Of a stretch of 64,000 bases of DNA, positions 8,879 through 55,038 are shown piece after piece. The translations under genes were made by a program, and so were the position numbers. Each line of letters starts with the position of its first letter. Within the stretch, counting starts at the first letter, position 1. Origin of the DNA: an uncultured Gammaproteobacteria bacterium (GTDB lineage Bacteria; Patescibacteriota; Patescibacteriia; Magasanikbacterales; GWA2-37-8); assembly GCA_964511375.1 (NCBI GenBank), contig CAZEEW010000003.1, positions 10,987 through 74,986 of the forward strand, given 5' to 3'. The notes below the pieces were generated by a model. The model was not told where the DNA came from. It did not search any database and was given only the letters and a program-made list of their open reading frames with translations.

Positions 8879-8907
8879 TTGACAAACAGGATGATTCATA
8901 GTAATAT
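8879..8907 (+). promoter_or_regulatory. sigma70-like promoter of rplJ-rplL
   Basis: TTGACA-17-TAATAT. Confidence 0.5.
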
Positions 8908-9043
8908 CCATTCACCATAGACAGCAGGCGGTTTGAGAAATCAAGCCTTAATTACCTGCCGAGGTGCAAAAAAGCCTTTATTAAAGGCTTCGGAGGTCGA
9001 TTTGTACTAAAAATTAGGTCTGTGGCTAACACAGATTTTTTGT
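8908..9043 (+). promoter_or_regulatory. structured 5' leader of rplJ (possible L10 autoregulatory leader)
   Basis: 135-nt untranslated leader with paired segments: cagcaggcgg/cctgccgagg and aaagccttt/aaaggcttc. Confidence 0.3.
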
Positions 9044-9568
9044 ATGGCAAAATCCAAACAACAAAAAGTAGAAACCATAGATAGCTTAGGCCAAGGTTTA
9101 AAATCCGCCAAAGCAGTGGTTTTTGCCAACTTCCAAGGTTTAAAAGTTAGCGAGGCCGAGGAATTACGCAAACTCTGCCGCAAGAACGACATCCAGGTTT
9201 TAGCTGCTAAGAAAACCCTTTTAAAGCGTGCTTTAACTGATGCTGGTCTTGAAGGTGCTGATCCAAGCGTTTTCCAAGGTGGTGTTGCGACTTTTATGGG
9301 CACGGGTGATGAAGTAGCTCCTGCGAAAGTAGTAAGCGACTTTGCTAAAACCCACGAGATCGTCTCCGTATTCGGTGGCGTACTCGAAGGAAAATTCATT
9401 GATGCCGCCATGGTAAAAAGCCTGGCTAGTCTACCTTCTAAGACTGAACTCTTGGCTAAGGTAGTTGGCTCAATTAATGCCCCAGTTTCTGGCTTTGTTA
9501 ATGTCTTAGCTGGTAACCTACGTAACTTGGTGAGTGTTCTTAATAACATTAAAGAAGCGAAAGCTTAA
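9044..9568 (+). CDS. rplJ: 50S ribosomal protein L10
   Basis: The N-terminal region is clearly L10, and gene order with rplL supports it. Confidence 0.9.
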   Translation: MAKSKQQKVETIDSLGQGLKSAKAVVFANFQGLKVSEAEELRKLCRKNDIQVLAAKKTLLKRALTDAGLEGADPSVFQGGVATFMGTGDEVAPAKVVSDFAKTHEIVSVFGGVLEGKFIDAAMVKSLASLPSKTELLAKVVGSINAPVSGFVNVLAGNLRNLVSVLNNIKEAKA

Positions 9569-17466: not shown

Positions 17467-17482
17467 GTGTTCCGTGACTTTA

Positions 17483-17554
17483 CGCTTCGCAGTTGATCTG
17501 AAATAGCAACTGTTACTATCTCAGACCGACACTGCGAAGCGCCGGCTATTTCAG
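17483..17554 (-). repeat. interleaved inverted repeats (pseudoknot-like or alternative hairpins) in the 3' region of the islet-1 gene
   Basis: cgcttcgcagt (17483-93) pairs with actgcgaagcg (17531-41). ctgaaatagc (17498-507) pairs with gctatttcag (17545-54). The order is A-B-A'-B'. B' overlaps the stop codon. Confidence 0.5.
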
Positions 17555-17769
17555 GATTTCTTCTTGAGACGGCGCTGGATGCGCCACAGGTAGGTGTATC
17601 CGATGGCGAGCAGGAGTCCCAGGACGATCTCGGTGAACGCCTCGACCGGCGTGTCTTTGATGAAGAGGCGGATGAGCCCCGTGACCACCATGATGTAGCC
17701 CAGGATCACGAACACCGGGACGAATGTATCGAAGAGATTCAGGATCATCATCTTGAACTGCTGAAACAT
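17551..17769 (-). CDS. 72-aa two-TM small membrane protein encoded in GC-rich islet 1
   Basis: GC3 near 90% against an AT-rich host. The RBS is gggaggc, 7 nt before the ATG. Promoter TTGACA-17-TATACT. Confidence 0.6.
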   Translation of the reverse strand: MFQQFKMMILNLFDTFVPVFVILGYIMVVTGLIRLFIKDTPVEAFTEIVLGLLLAIGYTYLWRIQRRLKKKS

Positions 17770-17819
17770 TTCTTTGCCTCCCTGCGCCGCGCAGGCGCTC
17801 CGTTGTCAGGGAACCAGTG

Positions 17820-17848
17820 AGTATAGCAAAGAGAGAGAGAGTTGTCAA
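17820..17848 (-). promoter_or_regulatory. sigma70-like promoter for the islet-1 gene, with a (CT)6 dinucleotide repeat in the spacer
   Basis: On the - strand: TTGACA-actctctctctctttgc-TATACT. The 13-mer tctttgctatact is shared with the helicase promoter at 28175. Confidence 0.5.
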
Positions 17849-32107: not shown

Positions 32108-32205
32108 TTGAATTGGAGGGTAGACAATGTGGAATGGACCATATTGCTTTTTTATTTACATTATGTTTAAATTTTTCTATCTTCAACCACTAGAAGGGGG
32201 TGGTT

Positions 32206-32421
32206 GTGAAAGATGAAGCCCGGCTTCCGAACCTCGGAAGCGAAGCGGCTCGGTTTTTCCTAGCCTTGGGGAAGGTTGCTGATATCCCAGTCAGCACAGC
32301 GGTCTCCACGGCCGGGGAAGAGAGCGCCTACTCTTTCGGGCATTGGAAGTGCCCGATTTGTGGGCGCAAGAACTTCTCGGTAGGCACGTGCCCGCAGTGC
32401 GGCACGCGACGGCCCCTCTGA
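32206..32421 (+). CDS. 71-aa zinc-ribbon protein encoded in GC-rich islet 2
   Basis: CPICG-x11-CPQCG. GC-rich codons. GTG start after aaggggg. Flanked by the 11-bp direct repeat gaagggggtgg. Confidence 0.5.
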   Translation: MKDEARLPNLGSEAARFFLALGKVADIPVSTAVSTAGEESAYSFGHWKCPICGRKNFSVGTCPQCGTRRPL

Positions 32422-32586
32422 AGGGGGTGGGGAGAGATCATGAAGCTGCCTTACTAGGGTGGGCGAGCACTCAGCAGGACTCCGCTCAACCACCTGTTGG
32501 GTTTCTGTGTATTAGGAACCCAGCAGGGGGAGATGGGCGGAGTTTTGTGTTGACTAAAAATATATTTTAGTATTTAATGGTCTGGT

Positions 32587-38547: not shown

Positions 38548-41340
38548 ATGTCTTTATTAACCAAAATATTTGGTGATCCGAATAAAAAAGTGATCGAGAG
38601 TCTTCAGCCTATCGTAGAAAAAATTAATTCCTTGGAGTCAGCCATGGTTAATTTGTCTATGAATGACTTAAAGGGAAAAACAGAAGAATTTAAAAATCGC
38701 CTAAGTAAAGGCGAGACATTGGAAGATCTTCTGCCAGAGGCGTTTGCAGTCGTTCGTGAAGTTTCAAAGCGCCTAACGGGCATGCGACATTTCGATGTCC
38801 AGCTTATGGGCGGTATCGTTTTGCATCGCGGACAGATTTCGGAAATGCGAACTGGTGAAGGTAAGACTTTGGTGGCAACTTTACCAATCTATTTAAATGC
38901 CTTAACTGGTCGGGGTGTTCATTTGGTTACCGTCAATGATTATCTGGCGAAACGTGACGCAGTTTGGATGAGCCAAATCTATGACGCACTTGGTTTAACT
39001 ATTGGTATTATCCAACAACAGAATGTTTCATATAAATATAATGCTACTGCCAGAGCAGCTGGCGAAAATCTAGCTGAGGGCAGTGAAAGTGACGAGCAGC
39101 GAGATAAAACTGGAATGTTTAAAGTTGAGAACGAATATCTAGATCGTTGTACTCGTAAAGAAGCTTACGCTTGTGATATTACCTATGGTACCAATAATGA
39201 ATTTGGTTTTGACTATCTCCGCGACAATATGGTGCAAGACTTGTCGCAAATGGTACAACGACCTTTTTATTTTGCTATCGTTGACGAAGTTGACTCTATT
39301 TTAATTGATGAAGCACGCACCCCACTTGTTATCTCTGCTCCAGCTGAAGATGCGACCGAAAAGTATTATCGCTTTGCTGACCTAGTAGCACGGTTGAAAG
39401 TTAACGAAGACTATAACGTCGATGAAAAGATGCGCTCGTCTACCTTGACAGAGGCTGGTATTAAAAAAATGGAAGAATGGTTAGGTATAGATAATATTTA
39501 CGCTGAAGGTGGTTTGGGTACAGTGCATCATGTCGAACAAGCTTTACGTGCCCATGCTTTGTTTAAACGCGATCGAGACTATGTTGTTGAAAACGGTGAA
39601 GTTATAATTGTCGATGAATTTACTGGTCGCAAAATGCCAGGTCGCAGGTATAGCGAAGGCTTGCATCAAGCCATTGAGGCGCAAGAGCGAGTTAAGATCC
39701 AACGCGAAAGCCAAACTCTTGCTACCATTACTTTCCAGAACTACTTCCGCATGTACGAAAAGTTAGCTGGTATGACTGGTACGGCGGTTACGGAAGCTGA
39801 AGAATTTGGCAAAATATATAAGCTAGAAGTTGTGGTCATTCCAACCAACAAAATTGCTCAACGTCTTGACCGCCCGGATCGTATTTACCGTACGGAAGAA
39901 GCTAAATATAAAGCCATCGCGCGGGAAGTAAAAGAACTGCAACAAAAAGGTCAGCCGGTCTTGATCGGTACTATCTCAGTGGATAAAAACGAAGCCCTAA
40001 GTCTGTTTTTAGAACGCGAAGGGATTAAACATGAAATTTTAAATGCTAAGAACCATGAGCGAGAAGGTGAAATTATTGCTCAAGCTGGCCGACCGGGTGC
40101 TGTGACTTTGGCCACAAACATGGCTGGTCGTGGTGTTGATATTATTTTAGGCGGTAATCCACCAGACAAAGAAATGGGGGACAAGGTCCGTGCTAACGGT
40201 GGTTTGTTTGTGATTGGTACAGAACGACATGAGTCACGCCGTATAGATAACCAGCTTCGTGGTCGCGCTGGTCGCCAGGGGGACCCGGGTGCTACCCAGT
40301 TTTATCTTTCTACTGAAGACGATCTTATGCGTATTTTCGCGGGTGATCGGATCCGAGCGGTTATGAAGACCCTGCGTGTACCAGATGACATGCCGATTGA
40401 GCAGAAAAGCATTACCAGTATTATTGAATCAGCCCAAAAGAAAGTTGAGGGTTTCCATTTTGATACCCGTAAGCATTTACTCGAGTTTGATGATGTCTTA
40501 AATCGTCATCGCGAAGTAATTTATGGCAAACGTAAGGTTATTTTAGAAGAGTTTACTCGCCAAAGAGAAATGATTCGGGCTAGTGAAGCAGGAAATCCAA
40601 CGGTTGAAACTCCAGAAGAAGTAGGCAAACAAAAACTGCAAGACATGATTTTAGAAATGATTGAGCAAGAACTGGAACAAATCATTTCTTTTCACACTGC
40701 TTCCGAAGAACGTAGCGAGTGGAACATGCAGGAAATTGCCGAGTCTGTCCAAACTATTTACCCTTTGACCGAAGAAGAAAAAGCTAAGCTTTTGGCTTTT
40801 AAAAATCCAAGTGCAGAAAAATTAGAATCAATCGAGGAAAGAACCAAGGCAATTGAATACTTGAATGAGCTGGCTAAGTCTAAATACGAAGAGTTGTTGA
40901 TTAAAAAAGTTCCGCATCCGGAAATGATGCTTGAGATTGAAAAGCAAGTTTTGCTTCGCGCTATTGACAATCTGTGGTTAGAACACTTAGTGGCTGTTGA
41001 TCACCTTAGAACAGGTATCGGTTTACGCGGTTATGGCCAGCGCGATCCGTTAGTTGAATACAAAAAAGAAACATACCAGATGTTTAATGAACTTCTGAGT
41101 TTAATACAAAAAGAAGTTGTCTATACTATTTATAAAGTTAGTATAGGTATTGAATTTGCACCTAGTGTCATGGCAAAAGAAAACGTGACTTTAAGTGGTG
41201 CGGCTAAAACTAGTGATGGTAATACAGCAACGCAAACCTCTAAACCAAAAATGATTGATCAAACTGGTAACGAACCAGGGCGCAATGATCCATGTCCGTG
41301 TGGAAGTGGATTGAAGTATAAAAAGTGTCATGGAAAGTAA
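38548..41340 (+). CDS. secA: preprotein translocase SecA
   Basis: Full-length SecA with a C-terminal CPCGSGLKYKKCHG zinc finger. Confidence 0.95.
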   Translation: MSLLTKIFGDPNKKVIESLQPIVEKINSLESAMVNLSMNDLKGKTEEFKNRLSKGETLEDLLPEAFAVVREVSKRLTGMRHFDVQLMGGIVLHRGQISEMRTGEGKTLVATLPIYLNALTGRGVHLVTVNDYLAKRDAVWMSQIYDALGLTIGIIQQQNVSYKYNATARAAGENLAEGSESDEQRDKTGMFKVENEYLDRCTRKEAYACDITYGTNNEFGFDYLRDNMVQDLSQMVQRPFYFAIVDEVDSILIDEARTPLVISAPAEDATEKYYRFADLVARLKVNEDYNVDEKMRSSTLTEAGIKKMEEWLGIDNIYAEGGLGTVHHVEQALRAHALFKRDRDYVVENGEVIIVDEFTGRKMPGRRYSEGLHQAIEAQERVKIQRESQTLATITFQNYFRMYEKLAGMTGTAVTEAEEFGKIYKLEVVVIPTNKIAQRLDRPDRIYRTEEAKYKAIAREVKELQQKGQPVLIGTISVDKNEALSLFLEREGIKHEILNAKNHEREGEIIAQAGRPGAVTLATNMAGRGVDIILGGNPPDKEMGDKVRANGGLFVIGTERHESRRIDNQLRGRAGRQGDPGATQFYLSTEDDLMRIFAGDRIRAVMKTLRVPDDMPIEQKSITSIIESAQKKVEGFHFDTRKHLLEFDDVLNRHREVIYGKRKVILEEFTRQREMIRASEAGNPTVETPEEVGKQKLQDMILEMIEQELEQIISFHTASEERSEWNMQEIAESVQTIYPLTEEEKAKLLAFKNPSAEKLESIEERTKAIEYLNELAKSKYEELLIKKVPHPEMMLEIEKQVLLRAIDNLWLEHLVAVDHLRTGIGLRGYGQRDPLVEYKKETYQMFNELLSLIQKEVVYTIYKVSIGIEFAPSVMAKENVTLSGAAKTSDGNTATQTSKPKMIDQTGNEPGRNDPCPCGSGLKYKKCHGK

Positions 41341-43933: not shown

Positions 43934-44857
43934 ATGAGTAACATTCCTTTTATCAAATATTCAAAGCTTTGGCTTAGTATTACAACAGCCGTCATGCTCT
44001 TTAGCATTGCTTTTCTGGTAATCTGGGGTTTAAAACCAGGCATAGATTTTACTGGAGGCTCTTTGTTGGAAGCAGAATTTAGTCAAGTTCGTCCCGATGC
44101 TAATCTAGTACGTACTTCGTTGCAGGATTGGGATCATAAAAATGCTGTTGTGCAAACTACTGGAGAAAAGGGTTTGATTATCCGGACTTCTTTTTTGAAC
44201 GAAGAAGAGCATCAAAAATTGGTACAGAATTTAGGAGATAAATTCGGCACTGAAGAGAACAAAATTAACGAGCAACGTTTCGAAACAATTGGTTCTTCAG
44301 TAAGTAAGACTTTGCGTGAACGCGCTGTCTGGGCGATAATTTTAGTTAACTTAGGTATTATCGCCTATATCGCATACGCTTTTCGTAAGGTTTCTCGTCC
44401 AGTCGCAAGCTGGAAATATGGCGCTATTGCTATCTTTGCCCTTGTTCATGATGTTTTGCTCGTTATGGGTGTGTTTGCCATATTAGGTCGTTTTTCGGGC
44501 ACTGAAGTCGATATCGCTTTTGTGGTCGCTCTTCTCACTGTTCTTGGTTACTCTGTTAACGATACGATCGTTGTGTTTGACCGCGTCCGTGAAAATTTGT
44601 TACACCGCTATTCCGATGACTTCTCTGAAACCGTTAACTATGGTTTGAACCAAACTCTAATGCGCTCCATTAACACTACCTTGACCACCTTACTACCGTT
44701 GTTCGCCCTCTATTTCATCGGTGGAGAGACAATTAAAAATTTCTCTCTAGCACTTTTGATCGGTATCGCGAGCGGGGCCTATTCCTCGATATTTATTGCC
44801 AGTCCGCTTTTGGCAATGGTAGAAAAGTGGCAAACCAGACGTTTCGCCAAAGCCTAG
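43934..44857 (+). CDS. secF: protein translocase subunit SecF
   Basis: SecF topology and motifs. Adjacent to secD. Confidence 0.85.
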   Translation: MSNIPFIKYSKLWLSITTAVMLFSIAFLVIWGLKPGIDFTGGSLLEAEFSQVRPDANLVRTSLQDWDHKNAVVQTTGEKGLIIRTSFLNEEEHQKLVQNLGDKFGTEENKINEQRFETIGSSVSKTLRERAVWAIILVNLGIIAYIAYAFRKVSRPVASWKYGAIAIFALVHDVLLVMGVFAILGRFSGTEVDIAFVVALLTVLGYSVNDTIVVFDRVRENLLHRYSDDFSETVNYGLNQTLMRSINTTLTTLLPLFALYFIGGETIKNFSLALLIGIASGAYSSIFIASPLLAMVEKWQTRRFAKA

Positions 44858-44872
44858 AGTGTCAAATAAGAT

Positions 44873-44906
44873 AAAACCCCTTCCAAAATTTGGAAGGGGT
44901 TTTTGT
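44873..44906 (+). terminator. secF terminator
   Basis: aaccccttcc-aaaattt-ggaaggggtt plus a T-run. Confidence 0.65.
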
Positions 44907-44961
44907 TATCTTGCCTTTGTGGTATAATATTTGTGAACAATTTAGTAAATTTTTTCAAATT

Positions 44962-45123
44962 ATGAACGATACTACCGCCCGGCATTTAGTTTGTATTTTG
45001 GCAACACTAATTACTGGTTTTGCCTATTATGCCGGGTATGTTTCTGGGACACGTGGTTGGTGGTGGACAATTTTTGGTTGTCTTATCATCTACGGCGGGG
45101 TATATAGGATAATAAGTAAGTAA
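44962..45123 (+). CDS. 53-aa two-TM membrane protein (VirB3-like position)
   Basis: Trimmed from the 77-aa track ORF to the ATG after the extended -10 tggtataat. Two hydrophobic helices with a WWW motif. Immediately upstream of the VirB4-N-domain paralog. Confidence 0.4.
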   Translation: MNDTTARHLVCILATLITGFAYYAGYVSGTRGWWWTIFGCLIIYGGVYRIISK

Positions 45124-45125
45124 AT

Positions 45126-46541
45126 ATGGGTCTTTGGGTTATTGATACACCCTTTGGTTTTAGCCTTGATCTCACCCTTTGGCAGAGTATTTTAATGTTA
45201 CGCGAGTGGGAATTGGTCAAAGTCTTGTTTGCCATTGGTGGTTGGACCGCCGCTTGGTTGTTGTTCTTTTTTATTGGAAAAGAATGCTGGTTAGCGTTTC
45301 GTCAGGCGAAATATACCAAGGGTTGGGAGTGGGTATTATTGGCAGTTGACATTCCACCCATGTTTATCCAGACTCCTAAGGCAGTTGAACAGATCTTTGC
45401 TCATTTAAGCGGTATTCAATCCACGCCGAATTTTGGTGAAAAATATTGGCAGGGGGAAAAGCAAAGATATTTTAGTTTAGAAATTGTTAGTATAGAAGGG
45501 TATATCCAGTTTTTAATTCGCACTGAAAAATCTCTGCGCGACTTAGTCGAAGCAGCCATATATGCTCAGTATCCAGAAGCCGAGATTACTGAAGTAGAGG
45601 ATTACGTGGATGTCTTGCCTAAGACTTATCCAAATCCTGAATACGACATTGCCGCGGGAGAGTTTAAACTTATTAATGACGAGCCGTTTCCAATTCGCAC
45701 TTATCCAAGCTTTGAATACAGTTTGAGTAAGGATGTCGTGTTCAGTGACCCGATGGCCGCCCTGCTCGAAAACTTTAGTCGGATCGGTCATGGTGAAAAT
45801 TTCTGGATGCAGATAATTATTGAGCCAACAGATAACGCTTGGAAGCAAAAAGGGATAGATCTTGTAAAAAAGATTGTCGCGAACAAAAAAGAAGTTAAAC
45901 CGGTTCCTTTGGTTGCTAAAGCCACCGAAGGTTTGGTCGGTGAAGCAGTTAATATAATAAAATGGTCTTTTGACGGTGGAGACGAACCTAAAAAAGAAGA
46001 ACCAGCTGGCAAAGTTCAGGACTTAACTCCTGGCGCTAAAAATACCGTTGAGTCTATTGAAGACAAAATATCTAAGATTGGTTTTAAAACAAAGTTAAGG
46101 GTCTTGTACATTGCCAAGAAAGAGACCTTTAACCCCACGAAATGCATGAAAGGTTTTGTGGGTGCTCTCTACCAATTTAATATTAACGTGCGTAATGGTT
46201 TTAAGGGGCATAAATCTACAAGTGGTACTTACTGGTTCAAGGAATATAAGATTAGAGAATTAAAAAGAAAGTTTGCGGAAGCCGTAAGAAAGAGAAAAAT
46301 TAAAACCTTTGGTAACCCTTACATTTTGAATATTGAAGAACTGGCGACCATCTGGCACTTCCCATTGCCGTTTGTTAAAACGCCTCTTATGCAAAAGCAA
46401 ATTAGTAAAACCGCTGAACCCCCACTTGGTTTGCCAATTGAAACTATGGACGGCCCGCTTAAAAAGAAAGTTACTCCACCTCCCGAGGGGCCAACTAAAC
46501 CACTTGAACCAAGTACTCCTGAAGATTTACCTTACGGTTAA
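45126..46541 (+). CDS. paralog of the N-terminal domain of the VirB4/HerA-like ATPase (60575-63133), lacking the P-loop ATPase domain; Pro/Lys-rich C-terminus
   Basis: Collinear similarity to 60575-63133. LVEAAIYAQYPEAEITEVEDY aligns with FLEQQIHAQYPHAEISEEPDY, and FPIRTYPSFEY...DPMAALLENF aligns with FPFKSYKKMDTDPLVALLNPL. An N-terminal TM is present. No Walker A. Confidence 0.55.
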   Translation: MGLWVIDTPFGFSLDLTLWQSILMLREWELVKVLFAIGGWTAAWLLFFFIGKECWLAFRQAKYTKGWEWVLLAVDIPPMFIQTPKAVEQIFAHLSGIQSTPNFGEKYWQGEKQRYFSLEIVSIEGYIQFLIRTEKSLRDLVEAAIYAQYPEAEITEVEDYVDVLPKTYPNPEYDIAAGEFKLINDEPFPIRTYPSFEYSLSKDVVFSDPMAALLENFSRIGHGENFWMQIIIEPTDNAWKQKGIDLVKKIVANKKEVKPVPLVAKATEGLVGEAVNIIKWSFDGGDEPKKEEPAGKVQDLTPGAKNTVESIEDKISKIGFKTKLRVLYIAKKETFNPTKCMKGFVGALYQFNINVRNGFKGHKSTSGTYWFKEYKIRELKRKFAEAVRKRKIKTFGNPYILNIEELATIWHFPLPFVKTPLMQKQISKTAEPPLGLPIETMDGPLKKKVTPPPEGPTKPLEPSTPEDLPYG

Positions 46542-46555
46542 ACACATAAACAAAA

Positions 46556-46581
46556 ATATCCACCAAAGTGGATATTTTTAG
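46556..46581 (+). terminator. terminator after 45126-46541 gene
   Basis: atatccac-caaa-gtggatat plus a T-run. Confidence 0.6.
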
Positions 46582-46589
46582 TAAACACA

Positions 46590-46646
46590 CTTCTCGGTAC
46601 TCTAGAAAATACATAGACATATATTCTCTAGGGCACGACCGAGAAG
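46590..46646. repeat. GC-clamped long hairpin with AT-rich interior at 3' end of islet-3 gene
   Basis: Outer stem cttctcggt/accgagaag (9 bp) enclosing about 39 nt. The internal ctctag direct repeat is AT-rich. Confidence 0.45.
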
Positions 46647-46693
46647 CGGATGCACCCCTGGCGTGGGGCGCCATGGCAGGGTGTTCGGGGGGG

Positions 46694-46843
46694 CTAGCGG
46701 ACGATCCAGCAGATGAAACGCTGGTCGTCCGGGTTGGAGTAACAGGGCTTCAGGTCCGCCTTGAGGGCGAACCAGGAGATGACGAGAAATGTCAGGACAG
46801 CGAACGCGAGGCCCGCCGCCCTCTTCCAAGTGAACGCCGCCAC
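46694..46843 (-). CDS. 49-aa single-TM small protein encoded in GC-rich islet 3 (GTG start)
   Basis: Not in the ORF track. RBS aggagg, 5 nt before the GTG. GC3 about 87%. Sequence MAAFTWKRAAGLAFAVLTFLVISWFALKADLKPCYSNPDDQRFICWIVR. Confidence 0.45.
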   Translation of the reverse strand: MAAFTWKRAAGLAFAVLTFLVISWFALKADLKPCYSNPDDQRFICWIVR

Positions 46844-47102
46844 CGGAACCTCCTACTGATTTTTCTCAACTGCAACGGGAAGAGCGAGCCCTTCGTCTCT
46901 TCCGGCAGATGCAGTCGTTCCTGTATCTTCTCCGGCCGCTTCGGTAGAAGCCGCCAGATGATTCCCATGAGAACCGCGATCCCGATACCCAACCCCATTC
47001 TTACCTCCTGAGTTGGGTTGGTGCGCCTAGACGTGAACTTCACGCCAGACAACGACTAAACATACTCTTTTTGTCTGGTTTTGTCAATGTGATTAATGTG
47101 CA

Positions 47103-47129
47103 CAAAAAACTCGGGTGTTAACCCGAGTT
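47103..47129 (-). terminator. terminator of - strand membrane-protein gene
   Basis: aactcgggt-gtta-acccgagtt with a T-run on the - strand. Confidence 0.6.
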
Positions 47130-47145
47130 GTATCTATTCTTTTGT

Positions 47146-47664
47146 TTAAGCCAATATTTCTTGTGCTGTCCGTTTGTTTTGCCAGTATTTTATCGCCTCA
47201 TATCCACCGACCAAGAGAGTTACATATGTGAGGTCGCCAAGGAGGGTATTACGGAAGAAGGGAATAGCAGCGACATAGCTCGTCGCTAACCCAGAGAGGT
47301 TGTGGGTGTACATAGTACCAAAGGCCCAAACTGCGAAGTTGGTTAGTACAAAGAAAAGCAAACTATTAAAAATTGTGCTGCCAAAAATATTTCGGAAGTT
47401 TTTTTGTTTTTTTACTACTTGCCCTACTAGAAAAGCAATGGCAAAGCACCCGTATACCGTCGCCATAATCGGCCAAGAATAAAAACCAATAACTAAATCA
47501 CTTAAAAACATGGCGGCTAAGGGGATGAAGAACATTTTACGTGGTAGATATAATCCACCGAATAAGGCGATCGCGGCAATCGGTGCAAAGTTTGGTGCGT
47601 GCGGCAATAACCTTGCCAAGGCTCCAAGAGCAATTAAGAGATAAATTGGTAAGTATTTTTTCAT
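47146..47664 (-). CDS. polytopic membrane protein (ECF-S-component/DUF-like, 5-6 TM)
   Basis: Trimmed to ATG 47664 (MKKYLPIYLL). Hydrophobic throughout. Confidence 0.45.
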   Translation of the reverse strand: MKKYLPIYLLIALGALARLLPHAPNFAPIAAIALFGGLYLPRKMFFIPLAAMFLSDLVIGFYSWPIMATVYGCFAIAFLVGQVVKKQKNFRNIFGSTIFNSLLFFVLTNFAVWAFGTMYTHNLSGLATSYVAAIPFFRNTLLGDLTYVTLLVGGYEAIKYWQNKRTAQEILA

Positions 47665-50064: not shown

Positions 50065-50288
50065 AATAAAAAATCTCTGTCCAAGCAGAGAAAAAAGATC
50101 TAAAAACAGAGTTCCTGCTCGGGATTTAAAGATATTTGAAGACCGGACTTGTCCCGAATTTGCTCGGGCCTTACCGTTGCGGCACAGTGGAGGAATTACA
50201 CCTCACTTCCACAAATATCTTTTTAAATTGTTAGTATAGAGAGATTAACATTTAGGAAACGGACTGTCAAACAGGAGTTATCAACAGG

Positions 50289-54530: not shown

Positions 54531-54614
54531 ACTTTTGTTAGTTTAAAAGTTATATCTTTATCTTCTCGGATCGTGCATATACTTGTCAAAGGGACAAAAC
54601 TTTTTAATACAAAA

Positions 54615-54677
54615 ACCACCCCGAAAACCCTCCTCCCTCTGAACCTAAACTTTAGGTCAAGAGGGAGAAGCGGGGTG
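54615..54677. repeat. long nested imperfect hairpin (three stacked stems) in islet 4
   Basis: Three stacked stems: ccaccccg/cggggtgg, ctccctct/agagggag and acctaa/ttaggt. Confidence 0.5.
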
Positions 54678-54756
54678 GCTTCTGCGAAAGGAGCGATGAG
54701 GCCGCCCGGCACGGTGCCGGGGGCGGGGATAGGGGACAGTGCGGCTTAGACGCCGG

Positions 54757-54939
54757 CTAGCGGATCAGGAGCGCCGAGCGGCGCCGGGCGGGTTCCTGGT
54801 GGCGGCCGTTGGCGGCCGGGGGCGGGACCTCGGGAACGTCGGTGCGCGGCTCCGAGGCCGCGCGCCGGATCTGCTCGGAGAGCTGCTGCAGGTGGGGGGA
54901 TCCGATCCCCCGGGTCTTCTTGTAGACGCGCTGCTTCAT
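54757..54939 (-). CDS. 60-aa basic, Pro/Arg-rich hydrophilic protein encoded in GC-rich islet 4
   Basis: GC3 about 95%. RBS ggtggag, 7 nt before the ATG. The hairpin ccctgc-N6-gcaggg lies immediately upstream. Other frames here are also open because of composition. Confidence 0.4.
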   Translation of the reverse strand: MKQRVYKKTRGIGSPHLQQLSEQIRRAASEPRTDVPEVPPPAANGRHQEPARRRSALLIR

Positions 54940-55038
54940 GATCTATCTCCACCCTGCGGGCTTGCAGGGCCCGAATATTAAAGCACACTGGAGGGAAAAA
55001 ATCAAGATTGGGCATATTCGGTTGTTAATAAGTTAGAT

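What the first reader, a model, noticed from the sequence alone, without database searches (positions are those of the whole stretch)
46585..47060. Islet 3: unannotated 49-aa GTG-start TM peptide with an overlapping upstream SD-led ORF and a GC-clamped AT-rich hairpin
The best coding frame by GC3 (about 87%) is a 49-aa single-TM peptide on the - strand (46694-46843). It starts at GTG, 5 nt after aggagg. It is too short for the ORF track. A second SD (aggagg-taaga-ATG, - strand, ATG at ~46990) opens an overlapping frame that begins MGLGIGIAVLMGIIW. So this may be a two-cistron or leader-peptide arrangement. The 3' end carries a 9-bp GC clamp enclosing an AT-rich interior of about 39 nt (46590-46646).
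Basis: partly seen in the sequence, partly recalled or inferred. Interest (0 to 1): 0.55.

Follow-up and report, generated by a model that had tools for sequence, protein, structure and literature searches.

The report
Unannotated GC-rich two-peptide gene module
A 500-base, GC-rich insert between two ordinary genes of a Magasanikbacteria-like (CPR) bacterium is probably a self-contained, heavily folded mRNA for two tiny overlapping membrane peptides with no known relatives, and the public annotation instead calls a spurious protein on the opposite strand.

Summary
The upstream ATG is at 46998, not about 46990. The "AT-rich interior" of the hairpin is itself base-paired, giving about 26 bp in all.

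The islet is an autonomous minus-strand unit between convergent genes:
- promoter TTGACA-17-TATGTT
- ORF A, 68 aa (46998-46792)
- ORF B, 49 aa, GTG start (46843-46694)
- two 3' hairpins and a shared bidirectional terminator

Sister-species contigs carry it at the same site. More distant Magasanikbacteria have only 0-125 nt there. The full ortholog (L018, 69% identical) keeps both SD-start pairs, the 155-nt offset between the two starts, the position of ORF A's stop, both N-terminal hydrophobic helices and several hairpins with compensatory changes.

Folding predicts that ORF B's SD is hidden by an internal CUCCU, which supports translational coupling.

ORF B's GC3 is 0.88, against 0.36±0.04 for the host. 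No homologue or family was found in any protein or RNA library.

Protein constraint is weak (dN/dS about 0.5). A mainly RNA-level function therefore remains a live rival, and the biological role is unknown. A type-I-toxin-like role is only a hypothesis, because no antitoxin was found.

Three other islets in the window share this architecture.

The parts
47059..47087 (-). Sigma-70-type promoter TTGACA-17 nt-TATGTT. The inferred transcription start is near 47052.
   Evidence: One search finds it as the only promoter-like site in 46400-47250 (10 of 12 matches). The block ATTGACAAA..CAGACAAAAAGAGTAT is conserved in L018 (TTGACA-17-TATACT) and in L003.
47025..47050 (-). Hairpin in the 5' UTR.
   Evidence: MFE and partition-function folds. 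RNAalifold keeps it in window, L018 and L003, with compensatory pairs (columns 9-37).
46987..47018 (-). 9-bp hairpin that presents the SD (AGGAGG, 47009-47004) and the ATG of ORF A in a 14-nt loop.
   Evidence: the SD bases are unpaired with p = 0.81-0.97. L018 has the equivalent stem TCCAGCTC/GAGTTGGG, with A-U to G-U and G-U to A-U changes (sequences).
46792..46998 (-). ORF A: 68 aa, MGLGIGIAVLMGIIWRLLPKRPEKIQERLHLPEETKGSLFPLQLRKISRRFRWRRSLGRGRRASRSLS. It has an N-terminal hydrophobic helix and a basic tail (net charge +13).
   Evidence: The L018 ortholog is 67 aa and 46% identical, with conserved motifs IIW, K-PE-I, LP and SLFPL-LRK. L003 has a 41-aa version. GC by codon position in the non-overlapping part is 0.53/0.39/0.75. 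NG86 gives pN 0.34 and pS 0.54.
46932..46957 (-). Hairpin inside ORF A: CTGGCGGCTTC-tacc-GAAGCGGCCGG.
   Evidence: L018 has CTGGCTGCTTG-ttca-CAAGCAGCCAG, a perfect 11-bp stem. The C-G to G-C double change alters two codons (L->V, P->H).
46867..46917 (-). Long imperfect hairpin inside ORF A, upstream of the ORF B initiation region.
   Evidence: MFE folds. L018 has an equivalent long hairpin at the same place.
46841..46854 (-). Initiation region of ORF B: AGGAGG, a 5-nt spacer, then GTG. It lies inside ORF A.
   Evidence: L018 has GAGGAGG-5 nt-TTG at the same offset, 155 nt after the ATG of ORF A.
46772..46781 (-). Internal anti-SD (CATCTCCTGG) predicted to pair with the SD of ORF B. It begins 13 nt after the stop codon of ORF A.
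   Evidence: pairing p of about 0.59 in the window. In L018 the stretch GUGCUCCUGA at the same transcript position pairs with the ORF B start region at p = 0.9.
46694..46843 (-). ORF B: 49 aa, MAAFTWKRAAGLAFAVLTFLVISWFALKADLKPCYSNPDDQRFICWIVR. It has an N-terminal hydrophobic helix and a short tail with two Cys.
   Evidence: (GC 0.52/0.46/0.88). The L018 ortholog is 70 aa. It shares the hydrophobic N-terminal helix and the motif L[K/R]ADLK; its tail is unrelated.
46653..46683 (-). Small GC-rich hairpin in the 3' UTR.
   Evidence: L018 has GGCGCT-ctac-AGCGCC at the same place, against TGGCG-cccc-ACGCCA in the window. The pairs are kept (columns 468-487).
46588..46648 (-). Long conserved 3' hairpin of about 26 bp with a 3-nt 5' bulge and a 4-nt loop.
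   Evidence: It is 92-95% identical in L018/L004 and in L012, where it follows a different ORF at a different locus. A variant in L003 and in the second L004 cassette keeps the architecture with compensatory changes. It folds better on the ORF strand than on the opposite strand (-32.0 vs -22.1 kcal/mol).
46552..46579 (.). Bidirectional intrinsic terminator (AAAAATATCCAC-nnnn-GTGGATATTTTT), shared with the convergent DUF8128 gene.
   Evidence: One search finds it on the minus strand, 46580-46551. It is conserved in L003 and L004.

Best explanation
The islet is a self-contained, lineage-specific transcription unit of about 500 nt on the minus strand.

It lies between the terminators of two convergent chromosomal genes: DUF8128 on one side, and DUF6580, the last gene of a B12-riboswitch operon, on the other.

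A near-consensus sigma-70 promoter drives a GC-rich, highly folded bicistronic mRNA. The mRNA encodes two small single-helix membrane peptides in overlapping frames.

Proposed mechanism (inferred from folding predictions):
- ORF A (68 aa) has its SD and ATG exposed in a hairpin loop, so it is translated directly.
- ORF B (49 aa, GTG start) has its SD locked against a CUCCU element inside its own coding region.
- ORF B is translated only when ribosomes reading ORF A pass through and stop 13 nt before that element. This is translational coupling.
- The 3' UTR carries two hairpins. The second is about 26 bp and strongly conserved. It most likely protects or processes the 3' end of the mRNA.

Shown:
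- the anatomy
- conservation of the architecture in sister species
- absence of the islet from outgroups
- the foreign-looking composition
- the lack of any homologue

Inferred:
- transcription from this promoter
- translation of both ORFs
- the coupling
- the role of the hairpin

The cellular function is not known. My best guess is a pair of membrane-active peptides of the small-membrane-protein or type-I-toxin kind. The high GC would then be held by selection on RNA structure rather than being a fresh import.
For: Anatomy:
- promoter and terminator
- both SD-start pairs and ORFs
- strong codon periodicity of GC in ORF B (0.52/0.46/0.88), against host GC3 0.36+-0.04

Comparative evidence:
- The same site in L003 and in L004/L017/L018 carries GC-rich islets. 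In these species the flanking DUF8128 protein is 85% identical.
- L006, L007 and L008 keep the SecF-p77-DUF8128 / DUF6580-593aa synteny, but with only 0-125 nt between the convergent genes.
- L018 holds the full ortholog. Conserved there are the promoter, both initiation regions, the 155-nt offset, the transcript position of ORF A's stop (261 in both) and the hydrophobic N-termini.
- Overall nucleotide identity is 69%. Synonymous sites of the flanking genes are saturated by comparison (pS 0.70-0.75).

RNA structure:
- The z-score of the transcript body without the big hairpin is -4.0 (window), -8.1 (L018) and -4.0 (L003). For the whole region it is -6.2 on the ORF strand and -3.2 on the other strand.
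- 31 of 100 consensus pairs show compensatory change.
- The SD of ORF A is predicted open and the SD of ORF B predicted paired, in both species.
- The 3' hairpins fold better on the ORF strand in 7 of 8 cases.
Against: - Substitutions between window and L018 are spread almost evenly over codon positions: 25/23/29 in ORF A and 22/20/26 in ORF B. The flanking genes show 29/8/84 and 59/36/231. dN/dS is about 0.5. Protein-level selection is therefore weak.
- Some compensatory stem changes alter amino acids. That fits RNA-first constraint.
- Open frames of 50-70 codons are expected fairly often in 60% GC sequence. My estimate is 10-20% per frame, and other frames in the islet are also open.
- Only two or three orthologs are available.
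- No homologue exists in 5.8 billion protein clusters or in 1.84 billion representatives.
- There is no expression or proteomic evidence.
- The coupling model rests on thermodynamic predictions only.
Confidence: 0.6

Rival explanations
1. The transcript is primarily a structured non-coding RNA, or a dual-function RNA. The two ORFs are incidental or only marginally translated, and selection acts on the fold.
For: - Strongly negative folding z-scores in three species.
- Several hairpins kept by compensatory changes, including changes that alter codons.
- Divergence nearly independent of codon position, with dN/dS about 0.5.
- pS in ORF A (0.54) is below that of the flanking genes (0.70-0.75). 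This points to constraint at synonymous sites.
- No protein homologues anywhere.
Against: - Both SD-start pairs are conserved at identical spacing and offset.
- The length difference over the alignable coding part is 3 nt, so the frames are kept.
- The pattern GC3 > GC1 > GC2 holds in the same frames in both species.
- Both N-terminal hydrophobic helices persist despite sequence change.
- No Rfam family matches, even at E <= 10.
- The z-scores are about equal on both strands for L018 and L003, so the body structure is not clearly strand-specific.
Confidence: 0.17
2. The unit is a type I toxin-antitoxin-like locus of the hok/mok kind. A small membrane-damaging peptide would be made from a stable, folded mRNA. 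Its translation would depend on an overlapping upstream ORF, and an antisense RNA not yet identified would hold it in check.
For: - The overlapping ORFs are 68 and 49 aa. Mok is 70 aa and Hok 52 aa, and translation of mok up to the hok SD is required (PMC9841398).
- Both peptides consist of a hydrophobic helix plus a charged tail.
- The SD of ORF B is predicted to be sequestered.
- There is a stable 3' stem-loop, as in hok mRNA, where it protects against exoRNases.
- The second cassette in L004/L018 encodes a 28-aa peptide, MTAFIAVVIVIVLACFVGWVMTHPTKRR, of classic type-I-toxin shape.
- A 6-nt stretch just 5' of the big hairpin is complementary to the SD of ORF A in three species (columns 55-60 with 488-493).
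Against: - No match to Hok_Gef or any other toxin family in Pfam, NCBIfam, PADLOC or PHROGs at permissive E-values.
- No convincing antisense promoter. The best candidate scores 8 of 12.
- No complementary sequence elsewhere in the window.
- The SD of ORF A is predicted open. The long-range SD/3' pairing has p <= 0.18 in L018 and about 0.04 in the window.
- Toxicity is untested.
Confidence: 0.2
3. This rival concerns origin and is compatible with the main explanation. The islet would be foreign DNA, acquired horizontally as a moron-like unit or as a mobile cassette. The conserved hairpin would serve as a recombination or attachment site at the DNA level.
For: - Composition far from the host: GC3 0.88 against 0.36.
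- Absent from outgroups at a conserved syntenic site.
- Own promoter and terminator, as in the definition of morons (PMC3594210).
- The same hairpin (95% identical) follows an unrelated 71-aa ORF at another locus in L012.
- Two cassettes lie in tandem in L004/L018, and the content differs between L003, L018 and the window.
- The Logan contig L001 ends at the 3' edge of the hairpin element (46645), as contigs do at repeats.
Against: - No donor or homologue was found in plasmids, phages, viral contigs or the protein databases.
- The high GC persists in the ortholog at a divergence where synonymous sites of neighbouring genes are saturated. This is therefore not a recent import that has yet to ameliorate.
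- The promoter and terminators look host-like.
- No recombinase gene, direct repeats or target duplications were seen.
- The hairpin lacks the RYYYAAC/GTTRRRY cores of integron attC sites (sequence).
- G-U pairs make the hairpin strand-asymmetric, as expected for an RNA element.
Confidence: 0.25
4. The real gene is the 147-aa plus-strand ORF (46568-47011), which automatic annotation calls across the islet.
For: It was called as a gene on the Logan contig L002. It exists as protein P0001 in NCBI and Logan.
Against: - GC by codon position is flat, 0.60/0.51/0.59.
- Its GTG start lies inside the terminator of the neighbouring gene, and the ORF runs through the hairpin.
- Its only database relative is itself.
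- L018 has no equivalent long ORF on that strand, only 88-90 aa fragments.
- No Pfam match.
Confidence: 0.02

Closest known systems
hok/mok/sok type I toxin-antitoxin locus of plasmid R1 (PMC9841398)
   Same: - A bicistronic mRNA with two overlapping small ORFs of almost the same sizes: Mok 70 aa and Hok 52 aa, against 68 and 49 aa here.
- The downstream peptide is a small hydrophobic membrane peptide.
- Translation of the downstream ORF appears to depend on translation of the upstream ORF through its initiation region.
- A highly folded mRNA with a stable 3' stem-loop.
   Different: - No sequence-family match.
- No Sok-like antisense promoter was found.
- The SD of the upstream ORF is predicted open, not closed by a 5'-3' fold-back.
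- The overlap is only 52 nt, not nearly the whole toxin ORF.
- ORF A is itself a conserved membrane peptide.
- Toxicity is untested.
Phage 'morons' (PMC3594210)
   Same: An independent promoter-gene-terminator unit, with GC content unlike its neighbours, inserted between genes that are adjacent in related genomes.
   Different: - It sits in conserved chromosomal synteny (SecF-DUF8128 / DUF6580) of a CPR bacterium, not in a prophage.
- No phage or viral match.
- The deviant composition is maintained in sister species.
Small bacterial membrane proteins such as AcrZ, MgrB, KdpF and CydX (comparison from my own knowledge, not tested here)
   Same: - Size of 30-70 aa.
- One N-terminal transmembrane helix followed by a charged tail.
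- Routinely missed by annotation.
- Poorly conserved beyond hydrophobicity.
   Different: - Those proteins use host-like codons and usually sit inside the operon of their partner complex.
- This unit has its own promoter, a foreign-looking composition and an elaborate RNA structure.
- No partner is known.
Integron gene cassettes with attC sites (comparison from my own knowledge, except as tested)
   Same: - A short ORF followed by an imperfect hairpin of about 60 nt with bulged bases.
- Cassettes can lie in tandem.
- Cassettes differ in content and composition from the host.
   Different: - No RYYYAAC/GTTRRRY core sites.
- Each unit has its own strong promoter.
- No integrase was seen.
- The hairpin is more stable as RNA on the coding strand than on the other strand.
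mRNA-stabilising or RNase III-type 3' hairpins and intrinsic terminators
   Same: [quoted passage not shown]
- In islets 2 and 4 the equivalent hairpin is followed directly by a T-run.
   Different: - In islet 3 the hairpin has no U-tract and is followed by a separate canonical terminator.
- At 26 bp it is about twice as long as the host's ordinary terminators.
- Its sequence is 92-95% conserved across species and loci.

Membership tests
Hok/Gef toxin family (Pfam PF01848) and other curated type I toxin families | A significant match of the peptide to the family profile. | tested here: not met
   hmmscan of ORF A, ORF B and the 28-aa peptide against Pfam at E <= 1, NCBIfam at E <= 0.1, and PADLOC and PHROGs at E <= 1 returned no toxin family.
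Type I toxin-antitoxin system (generic) | A small hydrophobic peptide of less than about 60 aa with one transmembrane helix. | tested here: met
   ORF B has 49 aa and a maximum 17-residue Kyte-Doolittle mean of 2.30. ORF A has 68 aa and a mean of 2.01.
Type I toxin-antitoxin system (generic) | An antisense or trans-encoded RNA antitoxin complementary to the toxin mRNA. | tested here: inconclusive
   - No plus-strand promoter scores better than 8 of 12 in the islet.
- No complementary repeat of the islet elsewhere in the 64-kb window.
- The rest of the genome and RNA-seq data were not available.
Type I toxin-antitoxin system (generic) | Toxin mRNA folded so that the ribosome-binding site is sequestered. 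| tested here: inconclusive
   The SD of ORF B is predicted paired in the window and in L018. The SD of ORF A is predicted open. These are in-silico results only.
Type I toxin-antitoxin system (generic) | Toxicity of the peptide when expressed without the antitoxin. | not testable with these tools
   Needs an expression experiment.
Phage moron | Its own promoter and terminator, GC content unlike the neighbours, and absence from related genomes. | tested here: met
Phage moron | Location within a phage or prophage genome. | tested here: not met
   - The flanks are chromosomal genes in conserved synteny across six Magasanikbacteria-like genomes.
- No match in the phage records or in viral contigs.
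Integron cassette / attC | Inverse core RYYYAAC and core GTTRRRY at the base of the hairpin. | tested here: not met
   The base of the hairpin reads CGCTTCTCGG...CCGAGAAGTG. No AAC/GTT cores are present.
Leader-peptide attenuator | A short ORF that controls a downstream structural gene in the same transcript. | tested here: not met
   The unit ends in hairpins and a terminator, and the next gene is convergent. The only thing downstream of ORF A is ORF B.
Any described RNA family (Rfam 15) | A covariance-model match at or near the gathering score. | tested here: not met
   Nothing in the islet at gathering thresholds. At E <= 10 the best hits scored 11-27 bits against cut-offs of 40-134 bits.

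The most novel reading that the evidence does not exclude
The islet would be one member of an undescribed family of autonomous modules in Magasanikbacteria-like CPR genomes.

Each module is GC-rich and has the same plan: a strong promoter, one or two tiny ORFs (mostly membrane peptides), and a hairpin of about 26 bp.

The modules occupy intergenic sites, occur singly or in tandem, exchange their contents, and keep a composition far from the host's over long evolutionary times.

This could be a new kind of toxin-like or cassette-like system. Its identity would lie in the RNA architecture and the shared 3' hairpin rather than in any protein family.
Probability: 0.22. Interest if true: 0.72.

Novelty: new variant of a known kind. 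Interest (0 to 1): 0.55.

Why it matters
- It adds two unannotated small membrane peptides to a CPR genome and removes a false gene call. The 147-aa antisense ORF is in public databases.
- The window contains four such GC-rich modules, and sister species carry more. Their codon usage is extreme for the host (GC3 up to 0.95 against 0.36) and is maintained across species. Neither recent transfer nor ordinary coding constraint explains this easily.
- If the modules prove to be toxin-like or exchangeable cassettes, they would be a first handle on small-peptide biology in Patescibacteria. They might also bear on post-segregational or defence functions, since almost nothing is known there about small proteins or regulatory RNAs.
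- The predicted coupling geometry gives a directly testable model. In both species ORF A stops at the same transcript position, about 13-16 nt before the element that hides the SD of ORF B.

Tried and rejected
- **Known RNA families.** Rfam at gathering thresholds on the whole window and at E <= 10 on the islet: nothing credible. tRNA/tmRNA scan: nothing in the islet.
- **Protein homology.** All of the following were empty:
  - ORF B against 5.8 billion clusters
  - the ORF A alignment against the same database
  - an exact-sequence look-up of ORF B
  - tblastn of ORF A and ORF B against plasmids
  - Pfam, NCBIfam, PADLOC and PHROGs
- **Full phmmer scan.** ORF A against 1.84 billion representatives gave one hit, P0002. 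It is a 1181-aa translated tandem repeat whose score is summed over 10 weak stretches. I rejected it as spurious.
- **DNA similarity.** The islet against plasmid and phage records: none. The hairpin pattern in viral contigs: none.
- **Are the window's islets repeats of one another?** No. blastn and tblastx show only short matches, apart from a 25-nt shared initiation region between islets 2 and 4.
- **The 147-aa plus-strand ORF as the real gene.** Rejected: flat codon-position GC, no relatives, not conserved.
- **The GC-rich stretch at 40147-40405 as another islet.** Rejected. It lies inside a SecA-like coding region (motif recognised from my own knowledge).
- **A -1 frameshift fusing ORF A to ORF B.** Rejected. 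The ORF B frame has a TAG immediately upstream of its SD.
- **A hok-like 5'-3' fold-back closing the SD of ORF A.** A 6-nt complement exists in the consensus fold. Its pairing probability is low, <= 0.18, so it is not adopted.
Full report
**1. What is there**

The window averages 40% GC. The stretch 46585-47060 reaches 58-60%.

The stretch lies between two convergent genes:
- A 471-aa DUF8128 protein (45126-46541, +), followed by a bidirectional terminator at 46552-46579.
- A 190-aa DUF6580 protein (47718-47146, -), followed by its own terminator at 47108-47129.

- AGGAGG-5 nt-GTG opens a 49-aa ORF (ORF B, 46843-46694, -). Its codon-position GC is 0.52/0.46/0.88.
- AGGAGG-taaga-ATG opens MGLGIGIAVLMGIIW.... 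This is ORF A, 68 aa. Its ATG is at 46998 rather than about 46990, and its stop is at 46792. It overlaps ORF B by 52 nt.
- The 9-bp clamp CTTCTCGGT/ACCGAGAAG sits at 46590-46646.

One correction concerns the hairpin. Its "AT-rich interior" is paired. On the minus strand, 46648-46588 forms about 26 bp with a 3-nt bulge and a 4-nt loop, at -32 kcal/mol.

ORF B's periodicity is far outside the host range. Fifty-three long ORFs have GC3 0.36±0.04. None of 1668 50-codon windows in them exceeds 0.62.

The islet is not an assembly artefact. An independent Logan contig (L002) spans it at 100% identity.

**2. It is a transcription unit**

The only promoter-like site in 46400-47250 is TTGACA-17-TATGTT on the minus strand (47087-47059). 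It lies just downstream of the DUF6580 terminator. The minus-strand reading of the bidirectional terminator (46580-46551) closes the unit.

The inferred mRNA is about 500 nt. In order it contains:
- a 5' UTR hairpin
- ORF A
- ORF B
- a small GC hairpin (46683-46653)
- the long hairpin
- the terminator

**3. Relatives**

The flanking DUF8128 protein places the window among Magasanikbacteria-like Patescibacteria.

Two sister species share 85% identity in that protein: L003, and L004 with the metagenome contigs L017 and L018. Both carry GC-rich islets at the same site.

Three more distant genomes (L006, L007, L008) keep the synteny SecF-p77-DUF8128 / DUF6580-593aa. They have only 0-125 nt between the convergent genes. 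The islet is therefore a lineage-specific insertion.

L018 holds a complete ortholog. It conserves the following:
- the promoter block (TTGACA-17-TATACT)
- GGAGG-6-ATG for a 67-aa ORF A'. It is 46% identical, with motifs IIW, K-PE-I, LP and SLFPL-LRK.
- GAGGAGG-5-TTG for a 70-aa ORF B'. It has the hydrophobic N-terminal helix plus L[K/R]ADLK; the tail is unrelated.
- the 155-nt distance between the two starts
- the transcript position of ORF A's stop, 261 in both

From ORF A's ATG to the ADLK codons the two species differ by 3 nt in length (251 vs 248), so the frames are kept. Where the individual gaps fall is ambiguous.

L003 keeps a 41-aa ORF A and a second ORF with an N-terminal hydrophobic helix directly after it.

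**4. Coding or RNA?**

Both signals are present.

For coding:
- the conserved initiation regions
- the preserved frame geometry
- GC3 > GC1 > GC2 in the same frames in both species
- persistent hydrophobic helices

Against strong protein constraint:
- Differences between window and L018 are spread 25/23/29 over codon positions in ORF A and 22/20/26 in ORF B.
- The flanking genes show 29/8/84 and 59/36/231.
- NG86 gives pN 0.34 and pS 0.54 for ORF A, against pN 0.10 and pS 0.70-0.75 for the flanks.
- Nonsynonymous change in ORF A is thus about 3.5-fold higher as a raw proportion (4.5-fold after distance correction). Its synonymous sites are less diverged than the neighbours' saturated ones.

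That pattern fits a fast-evolving peptide on an mRNA whose nucleotides are constrained for other reasons.

RNA structure is the obvious candidate for those reasons:
- The transcript body without the big hairpin has z = -4.0 (window), -8.1 (L018) and -4.0 (L003).
- RNAalifold finds 100 consensus pairs, 31 of them with compensatory change.
- One stem inside ORF A changes from CTGGCGGCTTC/GAAGCGGCCGG to CTGGCTGCTTG/CAAGCAGCCAG. The C-G to G-C swap alters two codons.

ORFs of this length are not rare by chance in 60% GC sequence. Openness alone therefore counts for little.

**5. How it probably works**

Partition-function folding places the SD of ORF A in the 14-nt loop of a conserved 9-bp hairpin, unpaired with p = 0.8-0.97.

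The SD of ORF B pairs with an internal CUCCU element: 46781-46772 at p of about 0.59 in the window, and at the same transcript position at up to p = 0.95 in L018.

ORF A stops 13-16 nt before that element in both species. A ribosome finishing ORF A would have melted the stem.

This is a translational-coupling model and is inferred, not shown. It resembles the mok-to-hok dependence described in PMC9841398.

The 3' hairpin folds better on the ORF strand than on the complement in 7 of 8 cases (for example -32.0 vs -22.1 and -40.3 vs -27.2). That points to an RNA-level role, most simply 3'-end protection or processing.

Its sequence is unusually conserved. It is 92-95% identical in L018/L004 and in L012. 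In L012 it follows a different 71-aa two-helix ORF with its own TTGACA promoter at an unrelated locus.

**6. A class, not a singleton**

Three more islets in the window have the same plan: a strong promoter, an SD-led small ORF with high GC3, and a long 3' hairpin whose transcript-strand 5' end reads CGCTTC or CGCTC.

| Islet | Coordinates | Strand | ORF | GC3 |
|---|---|---|---|---|
| 1 | 17481-17848 | - | 72-aa, two helices | 0.86 |
| 2 | 32171-32562 | + | 73-aa zinc-ribbon-like | 0.69 |
| 4 | 54579-55026 | - | 60-aa | 0.95 |

Each of the four islets ends in a long single hairpin of 26-29 bp. No ordinary gene end in the 64 kb has one. The only others of that strength lie inside the bodies of islets 2 and 4.

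L004/L018 carries a second cassette in tandem: a TTGACA-16-TATAAT promoter, a 28-aa peptide MTAFIAVVIVIVLACFVGWVMTHPTKRR, and a variant hairpin.

**7. Comparison with known systems**

- **hok/mok.** The sizes and overlap logic resemble it. No toxin family matches, and no antisense promoter or complementary RNA was found. It may work like one, but membership is not established.
- **Phage morons.** It meets the promoter, terminator, GC and extra-DNA criteria of a moron (PMC3594210). It is not in a prophage and has no phage match.
- **Integron cassettes.** It lacks the attC core sites.
- **Other libraries.** Nothing matches in Rfam, in 5.8 billion protein clusters or in 1.84 billion representatives. 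The sole hit there is a spurious tandem-repeat protein.
- **The public gene call.** The ORF annotated here, a 147-aa plus-strand ORF (P0001), has flat codon-position GC, no relatives and no conservation. It is almost certainly false.

**8. What remains unexplained**

The composition is the main puzzle. GC3 of 0.7-0.95 in a genome with GC3 0.36 would normally mean recent import.

Against that reading, no donor was found. The high GC also persists in the ortholog at a divergence where the neighbours' synonymous sites are saturated. Selection on RNA stability or structure, or a biased recombination process at these cassettes, could maintain it. I could not discriminate between these.

**9. Verdict**

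This is a real, conserved, unannotated two-cistron small-peptide module with an unusual RNA architecture and composition. It belongs to a small family of similar islets. Its function is unknown and the type-I-toxin-like reading is only a hypothesis.

- Confidence that it is a functional minus-strand unit: high.
- Confidence that both peptides are made: about 0.6.
- Interest: 0.55.
- Novelty: new variant of a known kind.

Noticed in passing
window 17481-17848 (- strand): Islet 1 has the same plan as islet 3. It has promoter TTGACA-17-TATACT, an SD, and a 72-aa two-helix ORF (17769-17551) with GC 0.51/0.27/0.86. A 27-bp hairpin (17481-17544, -40.3 kcal/mol) follows, then a canonical terminator. 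No family match.
   Followed up: partly
window 32171-32562 (+ strand): Islet 2 carries a 73-aa ORF (32200-32421) with a CPICG...CPQCG zinc-ribbon-like motif. The Pfam hits are weak and below cut-off. Next come a 5-codon mini-ORF and a 28-bp hairpin (32477-32548, -46.4 kcal/mol) followed by TTTTG.
   Followed up: partly
window 54579-55026 (- strand): Islet 4 is the most GC-rich (up to 79% in 150 nt). It carries a 60-aa hydrophilic ORF (54939-54757) with GC3 0.95. A 27-29-bp hairpin (54613-54684) follows, then a T-run. No family match.
   Followed up: partly
window 32425-32449 and 54930-54954: Islets 2 and 4 share a 25-nt initiation region on their sense strands, GGTGG(G/A)GA(G/T)AGATCATGAAGC, identical at 22 of 25 positions. 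In islet 2 it opens only a 5-codon ORF. This suggests shared ancestry or exchange of parts between islets.
   Followed up: no
L018 4975-5202 and L004 5467-5735: The sister species has a second, tandem cassette between the islet-3 ortholog and the DUF8128 gene. It has a perfect TTGACA-16-TATAAT promoter, a 28-aa hydrophobic peptide MTAFIAVVIVIVLACFVGWVMTHPTKRR, and a variant hairpin. The window lacks this cassette.
   Followed up: partly
L012 2378-2700: A hairpin 95% identical to the window's sits at a different locus, downstream of a ComEC-like gene. It lies 3' of an unrelated 71-aa two-helix ORF with its own TTGACA-17-TATATT promoter. That ORF is only moderately GC-rich (GC3 0.50).
   Followed up: partly
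window 46568-47011 (+ strand); P0001: A 147-aa ORF antisense to the islet is called as a gene in Logan and NCBI-derived protein sets. It has no codon periodicity, no relatives and no conservation. It is likely a false annotation.
   Followed up: yes
L001 (window 44363-46645): A Logan contig from another sample (SRR5011273) matches the window at 100% and stops at 46645, the 3' edge of the long hairpin element. That is what an assembler does at a repeated element or at a population variant.
   Followed up: no
window 50078-50234 (- strand) and genes down to 47146: An AdoCbl riboswitch (64.7 bits) precedes a co-directional run of three genes. These are a 193-aa protein, a 593-aa Thr-rich surface protein with weak squalene-cyclase-like repeats, and the DUF6580 protein, which weakly resembles an ECF S-component. 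This may be a B12-uptake operon. The islet lies immediately downstream in the same orientation.
   Followed up: no
window 40147-40405: This GC-rich stretch (up to 57%) is not an islet. It lies inside a SecA-like coding region (motifs [34 protein letters not shown]).
   Followed up: yes
window 8897-9051 (+ strand): A ribosomal protein L10 leader (Rfam RF00557, 51 bits). This is an ordinary feature.
   Followed up: no
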